A stretch of DNA of 58,534 bases, filler included, from Sphacelaria rigidula (Eukaryota): assembly GCA_964200075.2 (NCBI GenBank). It is 2 parts of 2 records of this genome, joined end to end, with 100 filler letters (N's around TTAATTAATTAA, not from the genome) between each part and the next. Parts side by side here need not be neighbours in the genome. Positions count along the whole stretch, not along the records: positions 1 to 29,245 come from CAXNAA020000085.1; 1 more part is not named here. One strand, given 5' to 3'. Position numbers and translations under genes: made by a program. How positions within the stretch are numbered: the stretch's first letter is position 1; the number at the start of each line of letters is the position of its first letter. The notes beneath the pieces were generated by a model. The model was not told the origin of the DNA. It was given only the letters and a program-made list of their open reading frames with translations, and made no database searches. Positions 6,956 to 27,548 of this stretch are shown piece by piece.

Positions 6956-8900
6956 GCTGTAACAACTGGGATTTTGAAAACTTCCGATGTTAACCACTAT
7001 ATTCAAGGTTGGAACATAACTCATCTCGTTGTATCAACGTGAAATAAAATTCGCTCGATCACAGAGGGAAGAGAGCGATCGTCTCCCTCTCCACTCCGAA
7101 GTTCTTGCGTCGGTGACTGTAAGAAGCAAATAACATGGTCCCTTATCACCGCCCAGCCCGTATATCATTTGCCGTTGAGTGCAAGGTCATTTTATTTCGA
7201 GATGTGGGATGGACGCCTGGTGTCCTATATTCCTCAAATAATTGTAATATAAAAGTGTTACTGGAATGACGGAAGCTACTCAGATGTGGCCATTACGGCC
7301 GGATATTATGGACAGGTTTTCGACCTACAGGTAGTTCACTTTTGGGACGTTTGAGGGACGCTTTGCATCACCCCACAGAGAGGAACCTCATCTGCTTTTC
7401 GGAGTCGATGGGCTCAGTGGTTTCGAGATTGGCCGCTGAACAAAATCCGTACGCAAAAAACGGTGCTTGCCGGCCCCCGCCAGTTTGCCTTCAACTGTGC
7501 GGAGGTCGACGCGGCTTCTGTTGCACACGGATCCTTGTCCAGCGGCTGCTCTCGAAACCTTCCGGCCGAGCGAATTTGAAGAGCAGACTAGGCTCCTTCA
7601 TGGGGTGATGCAGAATGTCCGTGGCATGTGTTGGCGATTTTCCCTGTTCAAGAATCAAAAAGTGCCTCAAACGTCCCAAAGTGAACAATCCGTGGGCCAA
7701 GAATTTGTGCGCCATGACATCCGGCCCAACTTCACGTCTTCGTGACCGACGAAGACATCTCGAAATGAGAAGATTGCGTGGTATCCTTCACTGATCGTGG
7801 GGCTTTGGGGGGCCGCAGCTTGTGATATTTCTCTCGTGTACATATCATCTTGCCAGGTGCTATCAAGCACCTGTTCATCGACCATCGTGCCCGACGCACG
7901 AGAAAAAAGTTGTCTCTTGTTCAGCGTCTACAAGCGGTATGCACGATTCCTCCACCGCAGACGACACGAATATCGCCAACAAAACATTCACATCCCTCCC
8001 ACACCAGGGCACCGTGTCTCACGCACGCAATTTCATTAAGCAATCTTACTGCGACAATCAATCGACCGCAAGCCATGAGCGCTGACCCGTTGAACGCAGC
8101 ATGCCGACAGTCGCGTCAGGAAATTCATACACACGACTTCCGAAATTCCTGGTGTGTTCAAATCAGATACTGTGCATCAGGACGAACTCGCCATTCAAAT
8201 GCCTTCTTGCATTTATTCACATTTCCACCGAATATCTGTACAACTGCTACACGTCCTTTATCCCCGTTAATTCAATGCTGTGTGCAACGTTTTTCCATTT
8301 CGTGACGGGATGACAAAATCAGCACACCAACGGCTTCAGCCGCTGAAAAGCCACGGAGGTCAAGATATGAACCGGCCAACTGCATAATATTTTCCGACTG
8401 CTCACTCACACACGAAACAATCTCCCGAGTATTCACATTATTTCTCATCTTCGCGCACACCATGGAAACGTATGGAGCAACGAGTGTATCCTTTGCATGC
8501 AACGCCATCTCCCCTACACCCCCATTGAAACACACAATACAAGATCGACAAATTCCAACCTCGGCCTCCCCCGACGGCCCATGATCCGCCCATGCGCGGG
8601 TGCCCCAATAATGCCGCCATTTGCTTTCGCTCATTCTCTTGGCGACAGCCCCTAAGGGTCGTAAAGTGTCCTCGTCAGACTTTCCCAGATGTGGTTGGTC
8701 AATGACTTACAAATATGACCAGCTACCATATTATCACTCTCTTTTTCACCACAGTCAAACTCACTTGGTAAAAAGACGCAAAAAACCACTGAATCAAGGA
8801 TGAAAGAAATACAAAATAATGAAGCCCTTTGGTTTGTGAATCCTATAATTATGACTTCAATCACTAGCGCTTCGAAATAAAAAAAAAACACTTCCGGCCG

Positions 8901-11900
8901 TCACGAAGTTGACTCGGCCAACGCTTTCTCGTACAGTTTCTTTTGCTTGTCCCACTCTTTTTTGAGCTTTTTGATGGCACTTTTGCTCAACGGCTCTCCT
9001 GCCTTGTCCGTTGTAGGCACGCCGTCATCATCAAACGCCGAGTACAGGTCGGTCTGGGACAAGAACATATCCTGTGGTTTCACCTTCTTTTTCGCCGCCT
9101 TCTCCGCCGCCTGACGTGCCTGTCAGGAGTCAAGTCAATTCCAACCAAGAAATGACACACCCAAAAAGGGCAAACGACACGTTTCGTCAATGTCGATTTT
9201 GATACGTCATGAATTTCTCCGGGTCGTGCACAAGGCGAATGGTGGGGGAGGTTGCCATAGCTATTATTGCAACCGATCTCGACTCGTCACGTATGAGGAG
9301 TCCAGATTGTCTACCGGAGATTTCCTGCCGTGATTTGGATTCCGGACCTGCCCGTTGGGCAACGTTTTTCGGAACAAAACGAGGACAAACCCTCACTTTC
9401 ATACAACGTCCCATGGGGAAAATCTTCACCTGTTCCTCCTTCCGACTTTTCCCCGGTGGTGCGGTGCCTTTCCCAGCAGCCTCTCGGAGTGTTACCGTTC
9501 GGTTAAGGACCAACACCTCTGGTGTCGTGTCCTGGTCCACCACGAAGAACCCAATACGCTCCAGCTGCATGTCAGCCGAAACACCCATGTTCACATGAAA
9601 TACGCGGGAGGAAATGGTTGATCGTCACGCTTCATTGATTTCCGACGGAGCCAGCCGTGGTCATTTCGCATATCAAAGACGTACTCAAAACCGAACCGAG
9701 CTGGACCGCTGTCTGAAGGTCACCAGAGTAGAAATCAAAGAAGAAGATAAAAATATTCTCGAGGAACGGGGCGACATCGTAACGCAGGCAGATGAACACT
9801 GAGAAGTGAGTTTGATGCACGAATACAATGAAACGAGAATACAAGGGGGGCACATGTCACCGCAAAAAAACGGTACTACCGATATATCACATAGAGGTGG
9901 ATCCACAGCGATCTTCCCTTCTGCGGGCTCCACACACCCCGTCACCACAAAAGCAAGTCACTAGTGTGGTACACCCACGGTTTGTAGCACAGCTTACATC
10001 TCACCTGCAACGGCGTTCCAGGACGACATTCCTTCACCAGCACCGAAGGGTCCACAAGGGCATCGCCCATCACAACCTCCGATTCTGGGTTGAGCTGGCA
10101 TGCGAAAAGAGGTACGAATAAAGAAATATCTCATGTCACCAAGAAAAAAATGAAGCTGGACGTCGTGTTGAAGCACGGAAGTAATAGTCAGACACTCGGG
10201 AGAAAAAAAAACTTGGGCGTATCTGCTTCTAAATGAATGCCCATCGCGGTCGTCCAAGGATTCAGTTCCGCAACTCAGTTTTGCAAGTGACCGGAGGAAG
10301 GGGTGACGCTGGCCAAGACTTTGGTGCAATCTCATCCTTGATGATACCCATGGACAAACGGGACAAACGCAACGAGGGGGAATGGATAACAACGCCGTAC
10401 TGTACTTTACAGCCCAGCACTGCTGTACTGTGCGTTTATAGAACAACCCGCAGGGCCATCCATGTTGCATCGTCACACTTTGTACACCCCAAGCGTCCGC
10501 AACGACAACCAGACGTCGATCAGAAAGTCTCCATCAAAAGTAGTGTCGTAATCCACCTCATCTCAGGAAGCGAACAGTGCTCACGTGGTATAATTGCAAC
10601 ACGAAGCCTCCACGACAGGTTATGAGGAACAGTCTCACTTTCATCCCGATATGGGCATATACCACAGCGACGAACACGAGACCATCGAAAAACAGACGTT
10701 CAAGCAAAAAACGACATCCTGATGAACCGCTCCTCCGAGACCATCTCACCTGCGCTTCCCATCGATCATCAGGAGAATCCACGGTGAAGAGGTGATTGTA
10801 CAGCCGCACCTCCGTGCGCACAGCACCCTCGCCGGGTACCCACGAAATCGTTCCCTTCGGCTTCGATTGTTTCGTGCCCTCTGGCTCTGCACCCCCATTT
10901 TCAGGAGCTGCGTCGGCGGCTGCGGCCCTCTGCCCCAACGTACACTTGAGCTCGATTGGTGGAGCATTAGCGCCGCCTTTTCCGTTGACGACGTCATCGC
11001 AGCGCATGGTCGCGTTGCAGTACTTCAATCCCACAATCTATTTTTCGTTAATCAAGTGTCATGCAGCAAGAACAGGAACGTTAATTTCAGGCAAGACAGA
11101 GCGAATCGCGGGCATGGGATGATCGGGTGCGGGGAAGGAAAAACCGAGATTGGGCGATTGCACACTTGTGTGACCCCTCAATGACCGGTGAATCTGCAAA
11201 ACTTGCTCAAGGAAGGTTTTCAAACGATTCATCTTCGAACCTGGTGTAGGGTCATCATGTCTCTCCACTCCTCGAGACTGTCACGATGGAACAATCCAAT
11301 CGTCGTGTTCCCTCTCTCCGTGTTCATTGCCCTCTGGCCAATAAGCCAAAGTTGTACGTTACAGGCAACACATCAAACACGACACGAAACCTGAAAAAAA
11401 GCCAGCATCGTAAAAACGCAGCTACAGTAAAACACCCTCCGTAACACACGCCACACGACATCCGACACAACAAACACCAAGAACAAAGTAAAAAACATTG
11501 CGGCTCCGCTGGTGCGCACTCCGTGTTACATCACATCATCCGACCAACCTTGCCCGGCGCCAGGCCGAAGTAATCGGGGGAGTCTTTTCGTCGGAAATCC
11601 GACACATCGATGAAGATCGTCGGGGTAAGGGTTATCTTGTGAGACCCACGCTCGGGGTCAAATGGTACGTCCAACACATCGAACTCCTGGCTGTCGAAGA
11701 CGTTAGTCAGCGTCACCTGCCCTTGAAAGACAGAGCGACGGGAATATAATTCGGAGGGGGTGGAGGTTGGGAATATGATAGTCGCACATGATCTAGTCGG
11801 TGTGTGGAGCAGCAACGAAGCAAAAACAAGTGCGGTTTCCCCTCCATTCCCCCCCGTCCCGACTCTCAGATCTCCCGTAACGCTAAAACAAGACATGTGA

Positions 11901-14900
11901 AAGCGGGGTCCAAGGAGTCAGAACACAACCCTCGCGCTACTTCCCGCGTGCTCGAAGTCAACCCTTCGATAGTAGTTCACGTGCTGAATCGGATTCAATT
12001 TCACTCGAATAAAAAGCATCCGTGATGCAAATGGATCACCCGCATCGCGGTTTACGTAAGGGTTGAGCGCTGTTGGGAGCCCAAATGGGTCATACCATGA
12101 TCTATATCAGTACATTGAATAGGAGTGAGGTTCACCTCAGACTGTTCCTGTTTTGTTTTTATAAGACTCATGGGCTTGGTGGGTCTTGCAATTTTCAGCA
12201 CTGATTGATACCCATCGGTTCGGCGGTGGGCAAGAACACCTACTTTTAGTCGCATCAACAACGATCAACTACTGCCCGTATGGGGACTTTCTTCGATTCT
12301 CAAGGAACTTCACGGAAACACATTTATACGACATACTGAAACACGTACATCAGTTATTATACTAATAATAGAGGCGAGGGATCGACCACGATCGCCAGTC
12401 TTGTTTCAGCGCCATGTACAAAGTTTTCGAAGCTCAACAATGCGACATGTTGGAAATACCCGAGACGCACCTTGATCGGGGTCAACACCCCCATTACCCT
12501 CCGAGAAGTGATATTCATCCCCGCCCTCGCCCAGTGCTCCAGCTTTTCCACCTCGATAATGTTGTCGTTCCTGCGGCCCATTTGTGTTGAAGAGGCCGGG
12601 ATTTTCCCCATGAAGAGGGGACCGATCAAGGTATAACGCACCGCGAACATCGTGCATTCACAATCTTGTTTCTCGTTGTTCCAAGATGAAACTGACGAAA
12701 AATATCTCCTCAGCGGAAAATCAGGACTCGATAATAACCCTGGGCATATATTCAGCCAAATCCTCGAAGGTAAAAGAGGAGGCACTAAATTTATTAGGCC
12801 TAGAGAAAAAGTTGGCCATCACCAGAACTCTCGAAGGTATCCCAGAACCGTCTCAAAAGTAAAGCAGGTTGTTCCGCGGGAACAAACTTCACCTAGCCCT
12901 CTCGGGGGCGTAATACGAAGAAGCTCACGTAAGCATACTCGAGAATTTCATTGTTTGCCTAAAGGGGCGGAATTACAAATGAAAAGACGAAACAAAAATA
13001 TATATATATTAAGAGATGCCGTGGGCCTCACCGCGTGACTCCAATATCCGCGCAAAATTTGTTGAGAATATCAGCCGTGTAACCTCGTCGCCGGAGCCCC
13101 TTAATCGTGGGCATGCGGGGATCATCCCACCCTCGTACCTTGACCGTCTTCACAAGCTTGAGCAACTTTCGTTTCGACAACACCTGCTCCGCATCGCACA
13201 TCAACATAAGCGAACATACACGTACAGATCCGACTGTGATTATTTGACCCGACGGAGCGTTTCTCGCCAATGTTTTGAGCCCATTTCCTGGCCGCGATTC
13301 GATCCGTACAAGTTAGTATATGCCAAGGAGAATGGATCCAGCGTGGAAAAAAAAAAGCCACGAAAAAAAAGTAGTGCTGATTGTACAGGACACACGAGGG
13401 TGTATCGGATTGAAAGGATGACGGACCTTTTGTAGTTCGCAACGCTGTGTTCTGCTGGGGGTATACCCGAGAGTACACACCTGGAAACACACACATACCC
13501 AGGGAGTGCGGAACTTCCAGCTGGGATACTCAACCGTCGCGAAGTGTGTACGGGACACTCCGGTATCGTTCGGCAGAGTATCGAGCCCTGTTGCGGACAG
13601 TCCGGTGAAGGTTGGAATGGCTTTTACCGACATGGTACCCTCGTATCAGGCTGTCTTTGCACATCATTTCAGGATTCAATAAGTGCGGTAGAAAACGAAT
13701 TTCACGGGTCTGATAGCTTATGATATCACCGTTTTCAAAATAGATCGCGTTAGGTGAGATCACGATTGATAAGATTGATGCTATACTTCCCCATCACACT
13801 TTCTCGATTTCAAATATTACGGGCCAAGACACGTCCTCAGCCGACAGACCCCACTCACCTCACTCTCGGCAATTTGCACTAGTGCAGAATGAAAAAAGCG
13901 GCGCCAACAGCAACAGGGACAGCGACGAAACATGTATCTTCCCGATTATGCTCACCCGCACACGGCGCTTGTACAGCGCAAGGCACGGGAAGCATCTTGA
14001 AGGCAAGACTCACAACCGAGAACCGCAGACAGACGACGCAATCCACCCGTCGGCGAATAAAATTCTGCCAAGGCTGGAAACGCCATCGATTGTTTTTGAT
14101 TCCCGTTGCGTTTGATATCGGCGCGCAACGTCCCTGGGAGGCCGCTGGGCTGCGGACCCTCCCACTCTTTCGCGCCTAGTTCAATTTTTTCGAATTCGAT
14201 CATCGCCATCATCACTTGAAAGTCGAAAAAGGCTTCGAATTATCCCTCCTCGAAGTTCCCGGACATTCTTCATGAGGGGAGGGAGTACTAATCGGGTAAA
14301 AACCTATATCATTGTACGATCGACCACACAATCCTTTTCAGACGATGCACTGAGGGGGAGGGGGGGCGTACTCATTTGTAGCTTGCCTTAGTCAGTTGAC
14401 CATTGACCACGCATCCCTTTCGAGACGGAGCACTGAGGGGGAGGAGGGCACGCTCAAAATTTCAAGTGTTTTCATGATGTACGGCGCGAGGAGTCCATGA
14501 AATTCCCGCCACGTCTCTTTAATTTCGGTGGATTTCATTTTACGACTTCGAAAACAACGTGCAAAACATCCCAGACGTTCCACACAAAGCGGACCACCAA
14601 AAAAAATGAGGAGACGAATGAAGAGATTCATATATTCGGGAATTCATACGAGACTCACCGTGCGGGTTATGTTTAGGCGGGCGAATTCGTAGACCCGTGG
14701 CCTGTAAAGGTCTAGAGCCTGGAGCAACCAGTAGTATGACTCCCGCCGAGTTTCGAATTCCAAGGTGCAGATGGAATAGTCGATATCCTCAACGCTGGTG
14801 GAGTACAGGGTCAACGGCAGTACAAGGGTCGGGGTGAGCGATTGAGTTGTCCATCGATAGGTTGCAACATGTTTGTTAACATCAGCACCACATTCATCTT

Positions 14901-17900
14901 GTCGGGTGGAATGTCCTGGAAACTGTCACGGAGAATATTACAAGGTTATGCAGGGTAGGGCATTCCTTTAATTAGGGTATCATGAAGAATCGGGTAGTAA
15001 TGCGATCGTACCCAAATCCACTCAACCCTTTGGTCGAGTTGGGAGATGTGATCATCATGACACAAAATCCGAGAGTGAATACCCAGGTAAATGCCATGTC
15101 CAACACACCCTCGTCTCCACATTTCTTTATTCGCAATAAATGCTCACCATCCCCTCACGAAACAGTCCTTTTTCATTCCCGTCGCGCGCGGTCTTCCCCA
15201 TATATTTGGGGTATGGACGACGCAACAGTCACTCGCATTATCGTCATCGCCCCCGTCACTGACCCATATTCTCCGCAATCATCACCGGATGTGGGTTTTG
15301 AAAAACAACGGAGGTAGATAAGTCTCCCGGGCAAAATACTACCAAGTTGCAACCTCTCCGACAATTTCTTTCTTTCCATGACTCACCTGTCGACAAGGCA
15401 GTGGGTGTAATCATAGGTAGGGTAGATGCACCATGTGTCTCCGACGTGGGGGTGGGAAATATAACGCACTCGGTACGCCACCTGCATTCGAATTGTGGAA
15501 GAGACGATCGGCGACATTTCCAAGACAAGGTACAGCAAACCGGTCAACACTTCTCTTCCTTTCTGGGTTCGGTCGGCGTGCATGATCCCTGTCAAACCCT
15601 CCGAGAAGCCAGTGCCATTTGCTTCTCCTGTTTTGCGATATTATTCCGACGTACACAGACCGAAGAAAATGCCGATCATACAAAATAAAAAGTCAAAACT
15701 GGACTTCTTTTCCCCCACACTTGAAGCCCCCTTCCTGTCTCGGGACGAGTCCGTGGTCTCAAGGGATCAACCCATCTCTCCCCCCGTACGTGCCTTTTTT
15801 TTTATTTCGCGGATTGGGTAAGCACTGGCGCACCGCGTCAACTCACATCACACAACCCCAGTCAACTACTTTGTCAACTCACGTTTTCATGCCTTCCACG
15901 GCGGAGATCATGCGTCACGGAGAAAGAACCCAACGTGTCAGAAATCGAATCCCCGTTCTCTCCACCCTCGAGGCGAAAGTCGGACCATTGCACTACCGGG
16001 GCGCGGCGGCGGGGTTCTCGAAGTTAATGAACGCTTTGATTCACACTAAGGTGTGTACCGAAAAGACAATGATGATGCGGAAAAACGTACTTGACGGTTT
16101 TCACCTCACCTGATCCCACATGTTGGGGTTGGGAGACGTCATGTCCATTTTCAGGCGAAGCGTAGCTTCGCCCTCCGCAACCCTCCCTGTTCGCATTTTC
16201 TCGAAGCATTCTAAACTTTCCTGGACAAATGGCCGACAACATCAGAGGCACGTTCCGTCACGGGCCGGAGCGACGACGTTGGAGGGGCGCTTTGTCCCAC
16301 GTCGATCAGTGACATCATGTAGAACGAAGAACATGGCAATTGTAGGAAAATATTTCTACGCACAGTATGATATCTTTGGTGTATAGCCCTCCTCGATGAT
16401 GTCATCCGGTGTCCAGGGTGTTGACAAAAATTCATGGATTTGATGCATGACTGTCGCGCATGAGCTGATTTTCTTCAAATCCTGCCGGACCAAAGAAACA
16501 TCGTACCCAAGAAATGCGTACCGTTTTTGGAAGAGACCGCCCTACATTAAAATGTCATCTTTTGCGACCGCCGTCTCGGCTCGTTCTCGGTCGATGCGAC
16601 GAAATTGAGCGAGAAGGGAAAAACGAGGCGCCGAAAAACTCGCCGGGTAAGCTCAGGTCAAGTTTCTGCTGTATTGAGGCTCACGAGGAAATCTCCATAC
16701 ATTCATTTGTCCTCATTGCTCATCCCACGAAACCGTTTTCACCTCTCGTCGATCCAAGGGCATCTCTGATCAACGACAGAAGAGGCGGATTTCGACACCT
16801 TGAAACGTCTCCCGCAATGAACACAAGGCTACACCAACACTTTCTCGTATTCAGGGGTGAAAGTTCAAGTCTACGCTCGCAAGGGATCATCACGGCTGAA
16901 CAAATGTATCCACACCACACTCGGGACAACACATGGTCGAAAATGGCCCAAAGAAGACCAATAATTGCAATGGCATTTTTTTTTCGCGTTATATTTAGCG
17001 TTTTGTGCAGCTTTCGAGCATGGATTGTCAAGGGTATCCACGAACCCGAAAGGAGTGCATGGCACTTGTACGTCCAAACTTCCGCGCCATATCGTGCAGA
17101 AAGACCGTTGGAAAAAGATGATGGAGGAAGACACTTTTCCGCAACTCAACATTTAGCAACATTTTCGTGAGATTCAGAGTAGAGCGCTGATTGACAGTGG
17201 CCATGATCGGCCGCTTCAACTCAACCATTTTTTTTTCACTCTGTGCATTTCTTTGCCTCCATCGCTGGCGTGTGCTTACAGGCACACGTTGATATCCTAT
17301 CCAGCGATATCAAGGGTCTCAGTGACAAGCTACTACAAAAATCATATCGGACCTAGTAGACTGGGATCTCGGAACTGAAACATTTCAGTTAGTAGTTGAC
17401 CCCCTTCCACTCCAACTCGTATCCTCTGCTCTCCATCCCCACGACAACACCGTAATTGTGGGCCGTTTGTACATGGCAAACTGAACGATTTGGAAGACTG
17501 CCTGTTGGGAGCTCTCGCATCGTTCCAAAAGCTCCGGGAAAGCGAACTGTATTTTGACACCTCGAAATGTCTTGGGTTACTCGTGAGGACAGACGGTTCC
17601 AGGACCCTGTACCCTTCTTGGTGGCATCAGTTTTTCGTTTGATCGCTCGTTTTTTCGGACTCTCGGTATATACAAAAATACTTCCTAGGCACAAACTTGT
17701 ATGAGACATTCCCACATATCCTCGTGAGTCCTTTTCCACGAGAAGCGGGTTCACGTCCTATTCACAACACTGTCAATACACAAATATGTTACCGGTGACA
17801 ACTGGATAGTAAGCTCAGGTCAAGTTTCTGCTGTATTGAGGATCATGGGAAAGATCTCCATACGTTAATTGTCCTCATTGCTTCATAGTCGGTCACCGTA

Positions 17901-20900
17901 CGAACGTGGGGAAAATGCGTCCGAGAACGAAACACCCCTGGAAAATGACCCAAACTCCATTTCCGTCTCGATGCTGGCAACGGACCGACCGATACCACTG
18001 TACCGTCGTGTACTCGTAAAGCGAACCCTACGGAACGTCATCCACATCACTTTTGTCCAACAGCTTTACGCGATAACGTGGGATGAAGGCTGTTGACCCC
18101 GAGGGAACGATGGAGCAAGTGCTGGGGGGGGGGAGGGGCTCATGCTGGAGTTGAAGGAAATCGTCGGCGTAGTCTCTCAGGTGCTTGGATACATCACGAG
18201 AAAAAACTGAAATCTCGTTTTGTCCAGGCAGCAAAACTCGCGACGTGTTGACAACTTCACAAAGGATAGTCAGACAAAAACGTCCATAAGGATCGGTGAG
18301 TATAGCGTTTTAGAAAGCTCAGGTCAAGTTTCTGCTGTATTGAGGATCACGGTGATTCTCCATACGTTCTATTTCCTCCTCGCCTTCCTGGCCCAAAAAA
18401 TCACTGAGCGCTGAATGATGGGTTCAAAACGTATACCCTACCCCCTCGAATGACTATGCTGCTCACCAACAGCAACATTTTTAGTACATTGCGGCAATTC
18501 ACCTTCACATCACACTCGGTGTTTTTTTTGCGAAACGAATCCGTCGAACTGTAATGCTACGATGAAAAGGAGGGTTAGAGTGTCGGGGCCGGTTCTTCAC
18601 GAAAACATTACACGAAATCATCGTCGGTTGTTCGAACGTGTTTTTTTTTCCCGACAAACGCTCGTCTATATTGCTTCACCTGTTCCTACCCCGATACAGG
18701 CAAACCGCGAGGGCCTCAGGTAATACGAGCTTTTTTTTCGGTGAAATACGTTCCCATTCCGTCCCCTCACCATCATTTCGCATGACTCTCGAGGTAAACT
18801 AGCCACGGCTCAAGTCGAGACTCGATGGACTCTATCGTCACCCTCGACTCATCCGACGACAACCAACTTGAACTGTGAAACGAGAAACACGTGTCCCCAC
18901 ATTCGACCCCGGAACCTTTTTGACCACAGCTTGGTGTGCAGCCACACTGAAAATACAACACGACGGTATATCGGCGACATCCTGTGTACCTGTGCCGTGT
19001 GTTTTTACCTCCACAGGTCTGTTCCTCCACGGACTGCACGGGTCTCCCGCGTTCGCGTTCGGATCGGCTGCATTCTGCTTCGCTATTTCTCGACATCGAG
19101 ATATGTCGTCCTTGGTCTGATGACAGACGTACGCCTTTCCAGCCTGCGACAGGGGCGAAATGAGTGCAACGAATGATATGAGCACATGGATACGTACATA
19201 CATCAATCAAGGTTTCGGAAGATCGGGACCGTGAACGGAAGTACTTTTATATATCACAGACTATAAAAGAGGGGAGAACGCATGTCTCAACTCGAGTTAT
19301 GCCCACCGCCCCAAATGTGGACTACACCCGACGATATAAAAGAACACGGTACATTATGCAACATGATCGAAATATCTGCATCACCATGACGGGTAGTTTT
19401 CGACAGGAAGAAATCGTCGTGGTCACCCTTGCTCCGGTGAACCTATTTCACGTGGGGTCCGACAATTTCACATATCCCCAGTAGCAGGAGCTCGGGCGGC
19501 GATTGGTCAATCACGGTCCGGACAGAATTGTGCATCAAGACGGAAGGTCTCGCCAACATCCATGTTCACCGATGACATCCCATCCAACGGGCAACGATTT
19601 GCCACGACTTGAACGACTCCGAAACGTCGGGAAGTGTCCTTTCGAGTACTTCACAGAAATTTCAGCGTGGACAAAACGCGGTTGAAAAGAGACACTACGA
19701 GAGGCGCGAGAAAAACCGAGCCGCACGCAGCCTCAGACCGATCTGAGATTAGACGACAACACCAACATAGGCTGCGCGTTTTTCTTGTCACTGGTGTCAC
19801 TCCGGCTCATCAATACAATCAACATCTGACCCGATTGTTCAGGGACCCGACTGATTTTGCGCAGCGCAGGGTACACTTGTTCATATTGCTCACATATTCT
19901 TCTCGTTTTCATGTTTGAAGGAAACGACACGCACTTGCCCTGTGGGTCATGGTGCGGTAGGGGTTGAAAAGTGGACCCAGATGTTTCCACGTTCAGGGGC
20001 TCAAGTTCTAAGCTGCACATGAGTAATACGAGTCGGAACATTCGCCTCCTTCAACTCCATTGGGTCTTCGAATTTCCGACGTGCTCCAACATTTCATTCG
20101 TCATATTCGGAAATATGTAGCGCTTCTCAGAAAGTGCACCCAAAGCAATATTCGTGCACTACCGTAGCATCACCCTCGAGTAGATCGTCTCACTCCTCAT
20201 TGCTGCACTGTCGTGAAAAAACCTATTCACGCAACGGATTTTCTTCCTCACCGATCCCAGATATCATCGCACGGGCATCCACCACAATGTTGAACGAGAA
20301 GCTAGGTTGATGGGATGTTTCAAACGCATAAGAGACCAGGGGCTGTCATCTCAATTCTGATTGCCTTCTTTTCTCACGGGTGCTTCAACTCGAATAACCG
20401 ACCCGTGTCTCCCCCGACGCGTGGCAGACAAGTCGGTACCGCGGGTGGGTCAGCACCTCCGCAATGAGCTGACCACCATCTGACAAATGCTGGTTACATC
20501 CTCGTTTCCGAGGACATCAGAAACTCATGAGGATGACGTCAAACGGGAGCATCTGGCGGGAAATTAACCCGCGTGTGTACATATATATTTTGTATATATA
20601 TATATCGCCTTATTGATTTTCGCTGTCGATTTTCGTGGATGCTTCATGAGCTGCGGGGTTCACTGATCGAATGCTCCACAGCGTGCTCCGAAACACTACC
20701 GGAAACAGGACAAAACTTCATGGTACGATAGTGTACGTTAGTGTCGTCGAGAGTGCGAGGGGACATTGAAGAACAACGTAATATGATTTGATTGGCCGGC
20801 AGTCAAATCCTTCTTGATCCATTAGGGATCCAGCCCTAGTCACATGATGAATGATACACGCCTCACCTTGATGAGCTTCACGGCCATCTCGTACAAGGTA

Positions 20901-23900
20901 CCGAAGCGTTCGGAAGAGTAAGTGGTCGCAGCAGGCTTCCATCCCATCCACTCCACGTCGTCACGGATAGACTGAAAAAAAAATGAGACCAACCAACGTG
21001 GACACGAAAAACGAGCTTTTGCAGCGCATCCTCGATAAGCTGTGATCAGTTCCATACCACAGCTGACGAAAAAATGGCGCGGAACACAGCAGTCATATTC
21101 CGGTGTATACATGAAGTTTGAGAGCAAGATGCAGAACGGTCTTCGTTCCGACGTCATCTCAATCAGCGGGAATTCAGCCGTCAAGGCCTTTGCCAATATG
21201 CAACAGGCGCGACCACTTTTCCGACAAAAGCGTCTCCACAATGGGGCGGGATATGTATGGCGATTGACTTGCGAAATTCCGAACGGGTGCTATCCAGAAA
21301 TCAAAGCTCATCCTCGCCCAGGGAGCAAAACATTCATGAGTACGAGATCCTGGTAAGGTCAAAACAATACTCACCACGAAGAAAAGAATACCAACCCGAA
21401 CAACAGGCAACATAGCCAAAAAAATATTATGCGTACCGCATGGAGTATCATGTGTATACAGCGATGGATACATAACAGTCCAAATGTTTACAGTGCAATA
21501 CATTTGATACAAGGTAATCCATCGTCATCATCCATGGTGTGCATGAGATGGTCATGATCCAGGGTGTCATCAAATGGTTGGGCTGAGTATAGGCTCCATC
21601 GGAAATTAAAACATATCAAGTCCTCACGGGGGTAGGCGAGGAGGGGCGTGGAAAAACTCCATGTTATTCCCCTCCTGTGATGCCTAAAAAATGGGCTCGA
21701 GGGTTTTCGTCACGCGGAGATCTCCTCAATCCTACCTCGTTGAACAACGCCACATAGCAACAGGAAAACATCCCGTTGTATCGTCAAGGGCCAAGACGGG
21801 ATGATCACGGTACCATCCGTCAAAATGAGTCGAGCGGAAACGAACAATTCGTAGTCCGGTGGTCATATGAAAAGCCATGGCTCATGCTATTTTCAGACAT
21901 GTTGGCATGTCTCTTTCGCGAAAAGGGAGTTTCCATGTAGGGGGCATGGACGGGAGTAGGGCGATGGTTGCAGGGGAGTTGTTGGACTGACCCCCCAAAA
22001 AACGGCGGTGAATTTTTTTTCCTATATTTTCTCCATCGGTAATTAAAACAAGTCCTCAAATCGAGCGAGACGGGGAAACGGAAAAACTCCGCTGGATTCT
22101 CCGCCTCATGTCGCTCGTGATTGTTGGCTCGAAGTTTTTCGTCACGCAGAGATCTGGCAAAGTATACACTTCAACATATCATCAATGACCATGACCACGG
22201 CGCAAATGATCATGACCGACGGCAGCTGCTTCCAGCGGGAAGCCCGTCAAGACATTGGACAAAAAAAACGGAATGCACTCGTAACCGCATGTTGATACGA
22301 AATGCAACACATGCCAGGTGCACAACTCACATCTATATACTCCCTGCTTTCTGCCTCGGGGTTGGTGTCATCTGTACGGCACAGACAGTATAGGCAAAAC
22401 AGAGGAAAAAGGCAAGGACATGCCCGGCAACATCAGGTGAGTCAAGAACACATCTGCACATCGTTTTCGGTGCAACCAAGCGGTCGAAGGCCTTGGTGTG
22501 CTGATTCCTCTGACGGCGTCATTTCTACTCCTGGAACAACTGACAAGCAAAGCTTTTTCATTTGTGAGCTTTCGTTCGTACGTGGGGTCTGCGTTGCGAA
22601 TTTCATGATCGACACAATGAGGGCAGGTAAACCGTTTCTTTCTTCACCAGTCTACTGCGTTTTCTCCTCACTTTTTCAGCAAGTGTTCCACCTCCATTTC
22701 GTCTTGGGTACGTGTACCGTGTGGATCATGACCACGGCTAGATCCCTGGGAAATCGGTTCAACTGCAAAAGTCACCCCGAGCAATAAATCACTGAAAAAG
22801 TGTACCGCCTACGGTATCGACCATCACGTCACAGTTCTCACGCTGTACGCACAACTGACGATCGTCTTCGCGAAAATAATTACTTTGGTGAAAATGTACT
22901 GCCTACCGTATCGACTTTTGCCTCGTAGTTCTCACTCTTTACGCACTATCGACCATCGCCTCGATCACATGACAAATTCAATCTCATGTTAGGGATGTGC
23001 AGACAAACGATCCTTCCCTCACCATAGCGGAATATCGTCTCTCGTTTGTCTTCCGAGACCCCCTCTTTCTCGAACGCCAGGTGAAAGTTCATATGCATCG
23101 ACTTGGCGTGCCCGATATGCAGGTAGCCATTCGGCTCCGGTGGAAATCTTGTCCGAATCTGTCATCATCCAGTACATTCACGACGGTGGGAGACGAATGG
23201 ATGAAAGCTGGTGTTTTAGTCCTCGAAGATGTCCCGAACACATCTTCCCCGGTCCTGCGCCAAAATAAAAAACACGAGAACAATCCAAAATGCCCACACC
23301 GTCTTCTTAAATGCCCGCACTCGATCAAGGTACACAGAATCAGTGGCCTTCGAACAGACTCTCTCCTCGACTCATTGACAGTGGTTAAGTCAGCCGCGTA
23401 AAACTCAGTGCACCACGCGGGCACAGCAGTCTGTATGTACACCGAAAACCGCTCCTTTCGGACACCGGGCGATTTCAACATGGAAAGTACGGCAGTATCG
23501 TCGATGTGTCCTTGAACGACCGTCTTACGCCAAGGTTCTTTTCACTGTGGCTGACAACAGGTCTGAACGCTTCTGCTCGAACTCGCTCGACTGGTGTAGG
23601 TCCAATCCTCCCGCACGCAAAGTGCGCCTTGGCATCGACTCTTGCCTGCGCACGCTGCGCTTCGGAAACGATCGTTGCCGGCGCCCCCGGCAAGGGGGCA
23701 ACGTCCTTGCAGACTGTACCGTAAGCCACGCTCAAGGACGGCCGACAGTTTGGTGGACCCGGGGCTGGGTACTGTATTACATACGGATATTCTTTTCAAT
23801 ATACCGATTTAGAGAATGGTCGGTAACTGTTGTCACGTTGATTTTTTGGTGGTCTTCTCACTTCTCCTTTGCCAAGGTTCTGGGGAGTACTTGACGATCT

Positions 23901-25625
23901 CAGCAGATAATTTTGAGTGTTCGAATTTAGGATATTTTAAATGTTGAGGCCAACTTTTAAAAGAGCCGTTCGAAATTCCTGTCGAAAACTGCTGTTAGGG
24001 CCTCCCTCCATCGATTCACGCCCGAAAAGAGGGCTACACGGATGTTGACGCCTTGGAATGATTTGCTCTTCTCGTTGAGTCCGTTTTAGGGCAACTCTGC
24101 ATCTCCCGCTGGTCGCACTTCTGTTTCTGGCCAAATGAGGCCAAAACATGGATTTTCAGTAAATAACGGTCAGGTGTTCAAAATTTCCTCCCCGTTTGTT
24201 ACTGAAAATCCGTCTTCGGGCGCAGATGAAAGTGCGACCAGCGGGGAATGCAAAGTTGCCCTGGAGTGGCCGCAATGAGTAGAGCAATTCATTCCAAGGC
24301 GTCAACAGCCGCCCAGCCCTTTTTTCAGGCGTAAAACGACGGAGAAGGGCCAGAAAGGCAGGTTTCGACTGGAATTTTGAACGGCTCCCGTTAGAGCCGG
24401 TCTCAAATTTACAAGTCTGTGTGGATGCTACATCATCACTTGTTTATGATGTATAGAGGGGCCTTCGCTTGTGTAGCTTCGCCGGTTGTTTCGTCGTCAT
24501 TCGTAAGAAGGAGGCGGCCTCACGGTTCTGCGTACGCCACCTGTGACAAACGCGCTTTTGACGGGGGTCCAACCCTCATCTGCGTCCGATTCACGGCAGG
24601 TCTTCATTTTACACACGGCAGTCCGCCCGCAGACGAATACCTCTCACGTAAAGTCAGCGTATTTGAATCACTACATCGATTGCCTCAAGGGCGGCTTCAC
24701 GCCCTTCGTCACTCAGTTGGCCAATGCTGTGCAAATTTTTGGGCCAATCGATCCACGAAGCGTCGAGAACGGCGCTTCTTGTCCGCCTGAACTCACCTGT
24801 TGTAGCGTTGGACCCTGCAGTCAATTTTGAAGCACTTCGTATGCCGTGTGGTCGTTGATGTTGTTCACATCAAGGCGGAATTTGCGCAACATTCATGACG
24901 CTGTACTGCCCGTACTTTGATTATTGTTTTTTACGGGTATAGCGCCTTTCATGCTCGTTTGTCCTCTCCAATCTCCACACGAACCGGTTCGCATGGAAAC
25001 GTGCGGCTACTGTGAACTAAAGTCGGATCCTCTGCGCGTCACTTGTATGTTTGGTGCGCATGGCCACAGCTTGTATCGGCATCCAGAGACAAAAGTCAGC
25101 GCAGGTACAGCATGGCCGCAATACTACACAACGAGCGCACACTAGTCTAGTCCGGGGCATACAGTACAGAATAGGTGCTCTCACGGGCGAGCTGGCGCAC
25201 CATATGAGATTGGAGACTGCAGCAGCAGCTACAAATGCTGCAAGCTCCCACTACGGAACTCAAACTCAACGATAAGGAAGCGAGTCAAGTATGATGTCAC
25301 CTGTCCACATGTTGTTCTGTGCTGTACCGTGCGTGCATGGCACACCGCAATAACGGCACGTGCGCATACCCAACCGAGCACTGCAACAGGGAACAGAGTA
25401 CGCCACCATAGGTGACGCCCTGCAATCAAGGCGAACCCTACCGCCTCTCCTGCCATTCACGAAGACGCCTGTTCCGACAAACGCCACTATGTTTCTCAGG
25501 CGCACCTTGCCTCCGGTGCGCGCAACATGTTCATCCAGCAATTTCTTCGAGTTCACGGCGCTCTCAAGCTCCCTAGCGGCCAGCGCCGACGCGGGCGCTT
25601 TGGATTCCCCCTCGGTGGTAGACAT
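8901..25625 (-). CDS. QARS: Glutaminyl-tRNA synthetase (class Ib), 15 exons, 676 aa
   Basis: Manually spliced exons, all GT-AG and phase-consistent: 25506-25625, 23023-23158, 22331-22371, 20867-20971, 19009-19143, 16110-16220, 15387-15481, 14659-14794, 13032-13183, 12471-12570, 11549-11716, 10750-11037, 10005-10094, 9430-9564, 8901-9119 (2031 nt). The translation has the GlnRS signatures [17 protein letters not shown] (HIGH), [38 protein letters not shown] (KMSKS equivalent), [14 protein letters not shown] and [18 protein letters not shown]. Confidence 0.96.
14356..14435 (+). repeat. Short dispersed repeat family C (poly-G followed by cgtactcatttg..gaccacgcatccctttcgagac)
   Basis: Further copies at ~34618-34676 and ~46286-46365, a diverged inverted copy at ~44775-44838 and a partial copy at ~45725-45760. 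Confidence 0.75.
16645..16726 (-). ncRNA. Box C/D snoRNA candidate, copy 1 (intron 5 of GlnRS)
   Basis: The minus strand reads gggatgagc-a-ATGAGGA(box C)...GTGAGCC...GCAGAAACTTGA-c-CTGA(box D)-gcttaccc. It has a terminal stem and is in the same sense as the host gene. The guide is complementary to UCAAGUUUCUGC, recalled as stramenopile 18S rRNA. Confidence 0.8.
17811..17883 (-). ncRNA. Box C/D snoRNA candidate, copy 2 (intron 5 of GlnRS)
   Basis: The minus strand reads aagc-a-ATGAGGA...ATGATCC...GCAGAAACTTGA-c-CTGA-gctt, with an AAGC/GCTT terminal stem. The guide is identical to copy 1. Confidence 0.8.
17996..18087 (-). ncRNA. Possible H/ACA snoRNA between C/D copies 2 and 3
   Basis: Minus strand order: hairpin (tcaacagc/gctgttgg), ACAAAA (ANANNA H box), hairpin (cgtaggg-ttcg-ctttacg), ACA plus 3 nt. 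Pocket-to-box spacing is slightly short. Confidence 0.3.
18312..18388 (-). ncRNA. Box C/D snoRNA candidate, copy 3 (intron 5 of GlnRS), degenerate box C
   Basis: The minus strand reads ggaaggc-g-AGGAGGA...GTGATCC...GCAGAAACTTGA-c-CTGA-gctttct. The terminal stem is kept with different bases, and the guide is identical to copies 1 and 2. Confidence 0.7.
22792..22963 (+). repeat. Diverged ~95-bp tandem duplication in GlnRS intron 2
   Basis: tgtaccgcctacggtatcgac..agttctcac..tacgcac is repeated as tgtactgcctaccgtatcgac..agttctcac..tacgcac. Confidence 0.6.
23938..24410. mobile_element. Diverged palindromic MITE-like element in intron 1 of GlnRS
   Basis: Inverted arm pairs gagccgttcgaaattcc/ggaattttgaacggctc, tgttgacgccttggaatga/tcattccaaggcgtcaaca, ccgctggtcgcactt/aagtgcgaccagcgg and ggattttcagtaa/ttactgaaaatcc. 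Confidence 0.75.
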
Positions 25626-27548
25626 GTTGTTTGACAGTCAGTGGGTCAGGGCGGCAGCAGACGCTCTCCACAAGCCTCCTAGTTCATGACTATCTAAGGA
25701 TGTTTACGAGATTCAAACCCTACATAGTCATACTTCAATATATCGTTGTAAATAAATGTCATGCAAACGATTGCGGACACACGGTTAAGAGTGATTACTA
25801 AATTGTCATAATCTCGCTTTCAGCGTCGCTTTTCGTCTTACAGTAACATTGTTCTGGCTCAGCCTGCGGAGGTTTTGGAGCGAGCTGAAATAGAGCCAGA
25901 TCCAAGTGAGTGGTACTATGCTGTGAAGGCAAGACAGATTTCGTCCGAGATAGTGTTTTGACGATTTGCAGCAGTGCCTTGATATATTCGCATATCGGAA
26001 CAATATGTTCGTGCGGCAGATCACGTGGGAGATGTGAAATGTGGCATGCCCGTTACGGCTCGGGCTGCTTGCTCTAGAGTGAAGTACCAGAGCTAACGAG
26101 AAGCTAGAGACTACTAGCATTCCAAACGCTAGGGTATAACCACTTCATTCTGTCAAAGACTGTGAGAGTCCGGCCTTGTCGTGCTGAGATTTCAACGTCT
26201 GTACGTCGGCTGACCTGCAAGAAAGATCGCTGTAGCAACTACCCCGGCACCTGTGACCATACAAGCGAAACCACACCTTCGAACTGTCGGCACGACATCC
26301 AAACACTGGTCCGTGAAATAGCTTGATTGAGCGATTGTACGTCGCCCCCTTTGCAACAGACGGGGTGCAGTACAGTAGGGTTGAGTCGTGACCTCTTCTA
26401 TACACCCCTTCTAGGTCTGCGCCTACTTGCGAGTCGGTGCGACAGCCTGTGGGCCATTCGCATTCTTGTTCTCGATACAAAAGCAGCGGAGCGTTTGCAC
26501 AGCGGTTGCGGTATCTTTAGGACCTACCCCGTAACGACCAGCCCCCGGTGGCGTTTGTGGGCTGTCAGTAGCGCGCTTTGTGATGTTATGGCCTCTTGCT
26601 ACGCCACGCCTCCTTGTCTCCCAATCCATCGTCTCAGAGCCACCGCTTGTGCTCCATGTAAATCAAATAATGCAAGGACACATGAGCGGCGAAATGCCAA
26701 GGCCTGGCTCTTCCAGCATTGCAAGCTAACCAACCCTTCGAGGCGGTCAAAGGGTCAACTTCGGAGTATCGCACATCTCGTAGATATAGGCAGGTCATTC
26801 ACCGTTGCATCATAAACAATCCCTTATTTGTGCCTGAGCAGTCCTTCTTTCTTCCGGTGGACTATGACAAACAGATTCATGCGCAGTAGACCAGCTCAGT
26901 AGAGGTTACCACTCGGTGATTTATTGGACCGACAGGGTTTTCGTCTTGACACCGAAATCCGGATCTTTCATAGAGGCTGTGCTCCTAACGTGCTCCTCAT
27001 GGCCTGCGCAGAACGCGTTTTTGTCTAAATCGACGCATGAGAATTAAGGTTGGGTTCAGAGTCATTTGAAGTCATGGATTTCCCAGAAAGTTCTCACCCC
27101 TACATTGTATACAGTAGACTCGGCTGGCTCCATGTAACCAGGGCCGCCGATGTTGGAATTGCATTACAAGTGTGGTGTAGTACTGTGATCGGAAATTGTG
27201 GCAGCACAGTACCTTAACCCTTGTGGAACCGTTAATAGAAAAACGACGATCTACAATTGACGTTTCCTGAGGAAATATATGGTTGTTATTTTTCTTCAAC
27301 TGCTGATGATAGCCCACCGAAACGGTGCACCACTCCAACCTCAAGTATACTAATGTGACAGATTCGTCCACCGCACTCGAAGTGACGCAAACTCGCATAT
27401 GGGAGTTTGCACTGTTTTTCTTGAGTTCCAAAAGGGTTAGTATATAGTGAATCCAACTCACCTAGACTTGTGTCAGATTCCACGCATGATACTACTGTAA
27501 AACTGGAGGCTTTGCTGTTTGTAGGAGTGGATCGAGAATGGAGGCCCG

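What the first reader, a model, noticed from the sequence alone, without database searches (positions are those of the whole stretch)
16645..18388. Three paralogous box C/D snoRNAs hidden in one GlnRS intron, with an invariant guide against 18S rRNA
Seen: an ~75-nt unit occurs three times (16645-16726, 17811-17883, 18312-18388) in the 2.8-kb intron 5, with unrelated sequence between the copies. On the host-sense strand each copy has a box C variant (ATGAGGA twice, AGGAGGA once), a C'-like RTGAKCC, an invariant CCTCAATACAGCAGAAACTTGAC and box D CTGA. The terminal stems differ in sequence yet still pair (gggatgagc/gcttaccc, aagc/gctt, ggaaggc/gctttct), which points to selection on structure. Known: C/D guides direct 2'-O-methylation of the target base paired to the 5th nucleotide upstream of box D. 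Inferred: the guide GCAGAAACUUGA pairs over 12 nt with UCAAGUUUCUGC in the 18S motif CAUUCAAGUUUCUGCCCUAUCA (recalled for stramenopiles), predicting Am at the second A, near yeast position 300. I do not know of this site being methylated in yeast or human, so this may be a lineage-specific snoRNA family and modification. Several snoRNAs in one intron would also require endonucleolytic (polycistronic) processing.
Basis: partly seen in the sequence, partly recalled or inferred. Interest (0 to 1): 0.85.

Follow-up and report, generated by a model that had tools for sequence, protein, structure and literature searches.

The report
Three intronic box C/D snoRNA copies
One intron of a brown-alga-like glutaminyl-tRNA synthetase gene carries three conserved copies of what is most likely an ordinary box C/D guide RNA aimed at one adenosine near position 300 of 18S ribosomal RNA; this is a new member of a well-known class, not a new kind of system.

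Summary
Three 73-82 nt units lie on the minus strand at 16645-16726, 17811-17883 and 18312-18388. They share an invariant 23-mer, while their flanks show no similarity. All three lie in sense orientation inside a 2788-nt intron (16220-19007) of a GlnRS gene, and RNA-like contigs show this intron spliced out.

Each unit has this order of elements:
- terminal stem
- box C variant
- C'-like box
- guide
- box D (CUGA)
- terminal stem

Guide positions 2-13 upstream of box D are perfectly complementary to UCAAGUUUCUGC. That motif sits at Rfam SSU model positions 299-310 in 7 of 7 tested eukaryotic 18S loci that carry it. In three surrogate rDNAs it is the single best target. A roughly 1.4% diverged relative has 36 differences in the rest of the intron and none in the units.

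Not shown:
- this species' own 18S sequence
- a stable ~75-nt RNA
- the methylation itself

Stem covariation is not significant with three sequences. Several snoRNAs in one intron are already known from plants and Plasmodium.

Verdict: probable new member of a known kind, of modest interest.

The parts
16645..16726 (-). Unit 1, putative box C/D snoRNA (82 nt as delimited). Box C ATGAGGA 16710-16716; conserved 5' block GTATGGAGA 16692-16700; C'-like GTGAGCC 16678-16684; 12-nt guide 16658-16669; box D CTGA 16653-16656. Terminal stem has 5 contiguous pairs, an A x C mismatch, then 2 G-C pairs.
   Evidence: (101.1 bits); weak Rfam snoU2-30 hit at 23.2 bits, E 0.21
17811..17883 (-). Unit 2, putative box C/D snoRNA (73 nt). 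Box C ATGAGGA 17872-17878; 5' block 17855-17863; C'-like ATGATCC 17840-17846; guide 17820-17831; box D 17815-17818. Terminal stem is 4 bp (AAGC/GCTT).
   Evidence: (97.5 bits); weak Rfam snoU2-30 hit at 24.2 bits, E 0.12
18312..18388 (-). Unit 3, the most divergent copy (77 nt). Box C AGGAGGA 18374-18380, lacking the U of RUGAUGA; 5' block 18357-18365; C'-like GTGATCC 18344-18350; guide 18324-18335; box D 18319-18322. Terminal stem is 7 bp including 2 G-U pairs.
   Evidence: (96.6 bits); no Rfam hit at E up to 10
16220..19007 (-). Host intron, 2788 nt, GT..AG. It is intron 5 of the GlnRS gene if the exon at about 25628-25494 is the first. Unit 3 starts 619 nt below the 5' splice site and unit 1 ends 425 nt above the 3' splice site.
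   Evidence: splice joint 16219->19008 in contigs of runs X4 and X7 (depth 288 and 357) and absent from DNA-like runs X1 and X9; tblastn exons; splice-site letters
8913..25628 (-). Host gene: glutaminyl-tRNA synthetase (PF00749/PF03950 type) with many large introns.
   Evidence: tblastn with P0009, P0011 and other homologues; homologue list
17130..17340 (.). Unrelated high-copy dispersed repeat lying between units 1 and 2. It is not part of the snoRNA units.
   Evidence: summed contig depth about 1e5 against about 65 baseline in DNA-like runs; a partial copy at 52326-52426 with 77% identity

Best explanation
The three units are paralogous, intron-encoded box C/D snoRNA genes, with unit 3 possibly weakened.

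Proposed mechanism:
1. They are transcribed as part of the GlnRS pre-mRNA.
2. Each unit folds so that its short terminal stem brings box C (AUGAGGA) and box D (CUGA) together into a kink-turn, which recruits the Snu13/Nop56/Nop58/fibrillarin set.
3. The mature ~70-80 nt RNAs are released from the excised or unspliced intron by endonucleolytic cuts and exonucleolytic trimming, as in plant intronic clusters.
4. The 12 nt at positions 2-13 upstream of box D pair with 18S rRNA UCAAGUUUCUGC, so fibrillarin 2'-O-methylates the second A. That A is at Rfam SSU model position 302, about position 300 of 18S, on the 3' strand of a long-range helix.

Shown: the repeat, the conservation against the flanks, the motif order, the host intron and its splicing, and the complementarity to the 18S motif in other eukaryotes.

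Inferred: kink-turn formation with U5->G in box C, release from the intron, presence of the G-variant motif in this species' 18S, and the methylation itself.
For: 1. Conservation confined to the unit. The units align at z 11.5-13.1 while the 100-nt flanks give z -2.4 to +0.9. A 23-mer plus box D plus GCTT is invariant in 3 of 3 copies.

2. Constraint within the species complex. Run X9, about 1.4% diverged, shows 28 substitutions and 8 indels in the 2577 nt of intron outside the high-copy repeat, and 0 in the 232 nt of the units. About 3.2 would be expected; my arithmetic gives P about 0.03.

3. Low copy number. Depth in the DNA-like runs over the units is about 1.2 to 2.5 times baseline, consistent with the three copies overlapping. 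Compare about 1e5 for the true dispersed repeat next door.

4. All 3 of 3 units lie on the host-sense strand inside a verified spliced intron of a translation gene.

5. The element order is stem, box C, C', guide, box D, stem, with 62-64 nt from box C to box D in all copies. The only Rfam families that touch the units at E up to 10 are C/D families, matched full length on the correct strand: snoU2-30 at 24.2 and 23.2 bits, and snoZ266 at 17.9 bits.

6. Target. Guide positions 2-13 give 12 contiguous Watson-Crick pairs with the 18S motif in surrogate rDNAs L009, L050 and L053. The next best sites reach 7-9 pairs including G-U. A given 12-mer is expected about 4e-4 times in 6.6 kb (my arithmetic).

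7. All 7 of 7 loci carrying the G-variant motif are RF01960 eukaryotic SSU rRNA. A printed microalgal 18S and a ciliate 18S primer carry the motif; a Babesia 18S primer carries the 13-mer but reads differently after it.

8. The host is a stramenopile. The best named GlnRS hits are Hapterophycus canaliculatus at 83% and Phaeothamnion confervicola at 79%. From recall, not from a call, 18S in this group carries the G variant.
Against: - No stable ~75-nt RNA is shown.
- The species' own 18S was not available. In the truncated scan of 55 eukaryotic 18S fragments, only 7 carry the G variant that the guide needs. The other 48 carry AAATTT, which would place a C x A mismatch next to the target.
- Box C deviates from RUGAUGA in all copies (U5->G), and unit 3 also lacks U2, a residue I recall as important for Snu13/15.5K binding.
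- No Rfam family reaches its gathering score.
- Covariation is not significant with three sequences: 1 double change, matched or exceeded in 352 of 500 shuffles.
- Fold energies are unremarkable, with z about -1.
- A generic box C + box D + 4-bp stem pattern arises about once per shuffled window (mean 1.03, maximum 3, in 30 shuffles), so the boxes alone are not beyond chance.
- The invariant stretch of 23 nt is longer than the 12 nt that pair with 18S, so something else also constrains it.
Confidence: 0.7

Rival explanations
1. The units are real box C/D snoRNAs, but the 18S site is not the target or not the only one. They could be orphans. They could use the conserved 5' block (AA[C/U]GUAUGGAG) as a D' guide against LSU rRNA. 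Or this species' 18S may not carry the G variant.
For: The 5' block is invariant over 9 nt in 3 of 3 copies. It is complementary over 14 nt (12 WC + 2 GU, unit 2) and 11 nt (unit 3) to the LSU of one unnamed eukaryote, L050, at about Rfam LSU model positions 2210-2225. Only 7 of 55 18S fragments carry the G variant. The invariant region extends 10 nt beyond the 18S duplex.
Against: The other 4 loci that cover this LSU stretch (L031, L038, L041, L056) carry CUCUGAAUGUCAAAG, which does not pair. The complementarity runs into the only GA-ending D' candidate (GAGA), so the register is wrong for a D' guide. The same block also pairs inside the snoRNA with CCUCAAUAC (7 pairs and one mismatch) in the MFE folds of units 1 and 3, which explains the invariance of both segments without a second target. 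The 12-nt perfect match to 18S at the correct register is unlikely by chance.
Confidence: 0.12
2. The units are a conserved intronic repeat that is not a snoRNA. For example, it could be a cis-acting element for host pre-mRNA processing, another small RNA, or decaying copies kept alike by gene conversion. The C/D boxes would then be fortuitous.
For: Box C is non-canonical. There is no Rfam hit above threshold, no expression data and no significant covariation. C/D-like box-and-stem patterns occur by chance about once per window.
Against: The boundaries of conservation coincide with the terminal stems. The segment directly upstream of CUGA matches a conserved rRNA segment over 12 nt at the canonical register. 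Gene conversion alone would not explain 0 of 36 polymorphic differences falling in the units.
Confidence: 0.12
3. The units are a U2 snRNA A30-type guide (scaRNA-like), as the weak Rfam snoU2-30 hits suggest.
For: snoU2-30 (RF00493) gives the best Rfam scores. They rest on the boxes plus ACUUGACCUGA, which matches the family consensus CACUUGAcCUGA. In Arabidopsis, U2 A31 is methylated by dedicated C/D guides (Table 3, seen).
Against: The scores of 24.2 and 23.2 bits are far below the gathering score of 60, and unit 3 has no hit. With the U2 5' sequence as I recall it (not tested here), only 6 contiguous pairs form (UCAAGU). That is below the 7 Watson-Crick pairs used as a minimum in the Arabidopsis survey. 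The rest of the invariant guide would be unexplained.
Confidence: 0.03
4. The units are fragments of a dispersed mobile element (MITE or SINE).
For: A true high-copy element lies between units 1 and 2.
Against: The units are low copy by depth. All are in one orientation. There are no further copies in the 58.5 kb. The repeat finder reports no inverted repeat at or around the units, and the flanks are unrelated.
Confidence: 0.02

Closest known systems
Box C/D methylation-guide snoRNAs in general (fibrillarin snoRNPs)
   Same: Size of about 75 nt. Element order of 5' stem, box C, C', guide, box D CUGA, 3' stem. Guide directly upstream of box D. Intronic and host-sense location in a translation-related gene.
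   Different: Box C reads AUGAGGA or AGGAGGA instead of RUGAUGA. D' is not recognisable as CUGA. No expression or methylation data exist for these units.
Intronic snoRNA gene clusters of plants (Liang et al. 2002, rice) and PFS15/PFS16 of Plasmodium falciparum
   Same: More than one snoRNA gene in a single intron of a protein-coding gene, implying release that does not depend on one-snoRNA-per-intron debranching. I saw this described in passages of PMC2656528. The rice paper itself I saw only as a reference entry there.
   Different: Here the three genes are paralogues with the same guide (isoforms), not different guides. They are 430-1080 nt apart in a 2.8-kb intron of a stramenopile gene.
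Rfam RF00493 snoU2-30
   Same: C/D architecture and the guide 3' end ACUUGAC next to CUGA.
   Different: Scores of 24.2 and 23.2 bits against a gathering score of 60. The remaining guide differs, and the predicted target is 18S rather than U2. Not a member.
Ectocarpus snoRNA predictions (Tarver et al. 2015, PMC4513859)
   Same: Brown-algal snoRNA loci were predicted with CDseeker and ACAseeker and total 88,311 bp (passages seen). An orthologue could be among them.
   Different: The main-text passages I saw give no loci, guides or targets.

Membership tests
Box C/D snoRNA | Box C (RUGAUGA) near the 5' end | tested here: inconclusive
   AUGAGGA in units 1 and 2 and AGGAGGA in unit 3. The GA dinucleotide needed for the sheared pairs is kept. 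U5->G would replace the U.U pair with G.U, which is my inference. Unit 3 lacks U2.
Box C/D snoRNA | Box D (CUGA) near the 3' end | tested here: met
   CTGA is invariant in 3 of 3 units, 62-64 nt from the start of box C.
Box C/D snoRNA | Short terminal stem joining the nucleotides 5' of box C and 3' of box D | tested here: met
   Unit 2 has 4 pairs. Unit 1 has 5 pairs, a mismatch, then 2 pairs. Unit 3 has 7 pairs. In this helix 81.8% of cells are paired, but covariation is not significant.
Box C/D snoRNA | Guide of about 10 nt or more, complementary to rRNA or snRNA, ending 1-2 nt upstream of box D, with the target nucleotide opposite the 5th guide position | tested here: inconclusive
   There are 12 Watson-Crick pairs at guide positions 2-13 with the 18S motif in surrogate rDNAs L009, L050 and L053, and this is the unique best site in each. 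These loci were chosen because they carry the motif, and this species' own rRNA was not available.
Box C/D snoRNA | Accumulates as a discrete 60-100 nt nucleolar RNA bound by fibrillarin, Nop56, Nop58 and Snu13 | not testable with these tools
   No run on record as RNA holds the stretch. Only contigs could be laid, and contigs cannot show RNA ends.
Box C/D snoRNA | Target nucleotide is 2'-O-methylated | not testable with these tools
   This needs RiboMeth-seq or primer extension.
Rfam RF00493 snoU2-30 | Score at or above the family gathering threshold (60 bits) | tested here: not met
   24.2 bits (unit 2), 23.2 bits (unit 1), and no hit for unit 3.
Intronic snoRNA gene cluster (plant type) | Two or more snoRNA genes, sense-oriented, within one spliced intron of a host gene | tested here: met
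   Three units on the host strand lie within intron 16220-19007. The splice joint is seen in runs X4 and X7. This holds only if the units are accepted as snoRNA genes.

The most novel reading that the evidence does not exclude
This is a stramenopile-specific (possibly SAR-wide) snoRNA family that installs an Am at 18S position about 300 (Rfam SSU model position 302). That site is unmodified in Arabidopsis, and, from recall, in yeast and human. The guide reads the lineage-specific G next to the target (UCAAG rather than UCAAA), so the modification would have arisen with, or after, that rRNA substitution. The family is kept as three isoforms processed from a single long intron. The invariant 5' block may give it a second activity, either an LSU domain IV target or an internal helix that organises C'/D'.
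Probability: 0.45. Interest if true: 0.4.

Novelty: new member of a known kind. Interest (0 to 1): 0.3.

Why it matters
In what I searched, I found nothing on rRNA modification maps for brown algae and their relatives, and snoRNAs only as computational predictions in Ectocarpus. A well-supported guide with a precise, checkable prediction (one Am near 18S position 300) is a useful anchor for annotating snoRNAs in these genomes. It is also a useful anchor for testing how lineage-specific methylation sites arise.

It would also extend the plant-type arrangement of several snoRNAs in one intron to stramenopiles. However, lineage-specific Nm sites are common in protists; 26 predicted Nm sites were specific to Tetrahymena among the four organisms compared in PMC3273799. 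Intronic clusters are already known. The finding is therefore incremental rather than surprising.

Tried and rejected
- **Own genome.** None is held, so no search of this species' rRNA, U2 or genome-wide copy number was possible.
- **Sequencing runs.** No listed holder is on record as RNA. X4 and X7 are only guessed to be RNA. They behave like RNA, with exon depth about 290-470 against intron depth about 5-10 and a splice joint. Over the units their depth (12.6-14.3 against 5-10) is no more than the overlap of three copies would give, and X7 has no cover at all over 16512-16717. Contigs cannot show small-RNA ends, so this says nothing either way.
- **Metagenome scan** for box C + gap + guide + box D. 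It gave 1 hit (L001), a G+C-rich stretch without the stem or other unit features, which I take as a chance match.
- **Spurious ORFs across the 18S motif** as a way to find named brown-algal rDNA. The only long frame (60 aa) reads AAG and AAA both as Lys, and the informative frames are only 23-24 aa. Abandoned without a search.
- **Literature string searches.** The 13-mer target occurs in 5 papers, none on snoRNAs. Guide and target strings as RNA or DNA gave 10 papers, all unrelated primers or siRNAs. 'UGAGGA' + snoRNA + 'box C' gave 1 paper, where it is an siRNA. The RiboMeth-seq search combined with protist names was badly designed and returned nothing useful.
- **Tetrahymena SSU modification map.** It is in a supplement that I could not see.
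- **Generic C/D scan of the window.** It found only units 1 and 2 and no other candidates.
- **tRNA, miRNA-hairpin or TE readings.** Rejected on structure, copy number and orientation.

Full report
**1. Observation**

- The repeat finder reports a 3-copy, 44-nt direct-repeat family (100/91/89% identity) with an adjoining 17-nt family.
- The 23-mer CCTCAATACAGCAGAAACTTGAC, searched with up to 3 mismatches, occurs exactly 3 times in the 58.5-kb window. All three are on the minus strand without mismatch, and 0 of 100 shuffles give any match.
- Aligned over 84 columns, the units have 86% mean column identity.
- Similarity stops at the unit borders. Unit pairs score z = 11.5-13.1 against shuffles, while the 100-nt upstream and downstream flanks score z = -2.4 to +0.9.
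- A covariance model of the three units, run without filters over both strands of the window, finds only the three units (96.6-101.1 bits). The next hit is 13.1 bits with E 0.55.

**2. Context**

tblastn with full-length homologues places a glutaminyl-tRNA synthetase gene on the minus strand from about 25628 to 8913, with many large introns. The units lie between the exons at 19152-19009 and 16226-16107.

Contigs of two runs that behave like RNA (X4, X7) have exon depth of about 290-470 against intron depth of about 5-10. They carry the joint 16219->19008, which skips 2788 nt with GT..AG on the minus strand. The DNA-like runs X1 and X9 do not carry it.

The best named GlnRS relatives are the brown alga Hapterophycus canaliculatus (83% over the exon used) and Phaeothamnion confervicola (79%), then oomycetes. 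The organism is therefore a stramenopile, probably a brown alga or a close relative.

**3. Anatomy**

Each unit reads, 5' to 3':
- a stem strand
- box C: AUGAGGA in units 1 and 2, AGGAGGA in unit 3
- a variable stretch
- an invariant GUAUGGAGA block
- a short variable loop
- a C'-like RUGAKCC
- the invariant CCUCAAUACAGCAGAAACUUGAC
- box D, CUGA
- the other stem strand, GCUU...

Box C to box D spans 62-64 nt in all three.

The terminal stems have 4 pairs (unit 2), 5 pairs plus a mismatch plus 2 pairs (unit 1), and 7 pairs (unit 3).

MFE folds of units 1 and 3, and the centroid folds of both, also pair GUAU.GAG with CUC.AUAC. This gives an internal helix that would hold the C' region in a loop and leave about 14 nt upstream of box D single-stranded. 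It offers an explanation for why the invariant stretch is longer than the guide. Both strands of this helix are invariant, so it has no covariation support (7 of 7 pairs never vary).

Fold energies are unremarkable, with z about -1. From recall, that is usual for C/D RNAs.

**4. Is it more than chance?**

The boxes alone are not. A generic search for [AG]TGA[TG]GA ... CTGA with a stem of 4 bp or more finds 2 hits in the real window (units 1 and 2). Shuffled windows give a mean of 1.03 and a maximum of 3 over 30 shuffles. What exceeds chance is that this architecture coincides exactly with a conserved, triplicated unit.

One pair changes on both sides (U-A against A-U) and three change on one side (A-U against G-U). 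Of 500 shuffles, 352 reach the same covariation score.

Better evidence of constraint comes from run X9, an 'algae metagenome' whose contigs differ from the window by about 1.4%.
- Outside the high-copy repeat, the intron has 28 substitutions and 8 indels in 2577 nt.
- None fall in the 232 nt of the units, where about 3.2 would be expected. My arithmetic gives P about 0.03.
- One further X9 difference within 16100-16676 was not printed. Because the overlapping contig accounts for 16650-16676, only 5 nt of unit 1 remain unchecked.

Depth in the DNA-like runs over the units is about 1.2-2.5 times baseline. That fits three overlapping copies and no large dispersed family.

**5. Known families**

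Rfam gives no hit at gathering thresholds anywhere in the window. At E up to 10 the units are touched only by C/D families, matched full length on the minus strand: snoU2-30 at 24.2 bits (unit 2) and 23.2 bits (unit 1) against a threshold of 60, and snoZ266 at 17.9 bits. The snoU2-30 alignment rests on the boxes and on ACUUGACCUGA. It is a resemblance, not membership.

**6. Target**

The complement of guide positions 2-13 upstream of box D is TCAAGTTTCTGC. The fifth-nucleotide rule is restated in the methods passage of PMC8053127 that I saw. By that rule, the nucleotide to be methylated is the second A of UCAAG.

I could not read this species' rRNA, so I used three kinds of stand-in.

(a) *Papers.* The 13-mer occurs in a printed microalgal 18S, at about position 300-312 by my hand count. 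It also occurs in a plagiopylean ciliate 18S primer named plagi_289_F and in a Babesia 18S primer.

(b) *A scan of prokaryote assemblies* for TTCAARTTTCTGCCCTATCA. Seven carry the G variant and 48 the A variant. All 7 G-variant loci are RF01960 eukaryotic SSU rRNA. In L053 the motif aligns to model positions 299-310, with the target A at 302, on the 3' strand of a long-range helix.

(c) *A register-aware scan of the guide* over the SSU-5.8S-LSU of L009 and L050 and the partial SSU of L053. It finds the motif with 12 Watson-Crick pairs as the best site in all three. The runners-up have 7-9 pairs including G-U.

These loci were selected for the motif. They therefore speak to location and uniqueness, not to its presence in this species. 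That stramenopile 18S carries the G variant is my recollection only. If this species had the A variant, a C x A mismatch would sit next to the target, and the reading would fail.

**7. The 5' block**

The block AA[C/U]GUAUGGAG is complementary over 14 nt (unit 2) and 11 nt (unit 3) to the LSU of L050, at Rfam LSU model positions about 2210-2225. The other 4 loci that cover this stretch carry the consensus, which does not pair. The match also overruns the only plausible D' (GAGA). I treat this as unexplained and probably chance, unless this species shares L050's variant.

**8. Mechanism**

The most likely reading is ordinary. The units would be intron-encoded C/D snoRNPs assembled on a C/D kink-turn, released from a long intron far from both splice sites. 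Unit 3 starts 619 nt from the 5' splice site and unit 1 ends 425 nt from the 3' splice site. Release would therefore go by endonucleolytic and exonucleolytic processing, as described for plant intronic clusters.

Kink-turn formation with G in place of U5 of box C (G.U instead of U.U) is inferred. Unit 3 also lacks the looped-out U and may be weaker or decaying.

**9. Novelty**

Several snoRNAs in one intron are reported for plants and for P. falciparum PFS15/16 (passages of PMC2656528).

Lineage-specific Nm sites are common in protists. In PMC3273799, 26 predicted Nm sites were specific to Tetrahymena among the organisms compared (passage).

Arabidopsis Table 1 lists no 18S Nm between G246 and G392. 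That yeast and human lack this site is recalled.

Ectocarpus snoRNA loci were predicted computationally (passages of PMC4513859). Their list, if given, is in supplements I could not open, so an orthologue may already be among them. My string searches found neither the guide nor the target in any snoRNA paper's main text.

**10. Verdict**

It still lacks the three decisive items: this species' 18S, a stable small RNA, and the methylation itself. This is a probable new member of a known kind. Its interest lies mainly in annotating brown-algal snoRNAs and in offering one sharply testable lineage-specific Nm prediction.

Noticed in passing
window 17130-17340 (partial copy at 52326-52426): A high-copy dispersed repeat lies inside the same intron. 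Summed contig depth is about 1e5 against about 65 baseline in DNA-like runs, with many variant copies and loose ends. It folds into palindromic hairpins and so looks MITE-like. A 77%-identical 101-nt partial copy lies elsewhere in the window.
   Followed up: partly
window 16692-16700, 17855-17863, 18357-18365 versus L050 about 6982-6995: The invariant 5' block of the units is complementary over 11-14 nt to LSU rRNA domain IV of one unnamed eukaryote (L050). It is not complementary to the consensus carried by the 4 other loci covering that stretch. The same block can pair internally with CCUCAAUAC.
   Followed up: partly
The 7 checked with Rfam are eukaryotic rDNA; the other 48 show 18S-like flanks but were not checked. 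This points to eukaryotic rDNA contamination in these assemblies. L050 carries three group I introns in its SSU/LSU region.
   Followed up: partly
window 8913-25628 (minus strand): The GlnRS gene spans about 16.7 kb, with at least 14 tblastn-visible exons and introns of up to 2.8 kb. Run X9 differs from the window by about 1.4% in this intron, so a close relative or another strain exists in public data.
   Followed up: partly
window 18148-18225 (+): A weak Rfam hit to plant snoR71 (19.5 bits, E 1.1, threshold 40) lies on the strand opposite the host gene, between units 2 and 3. It is probably noise.
   Followed up: no
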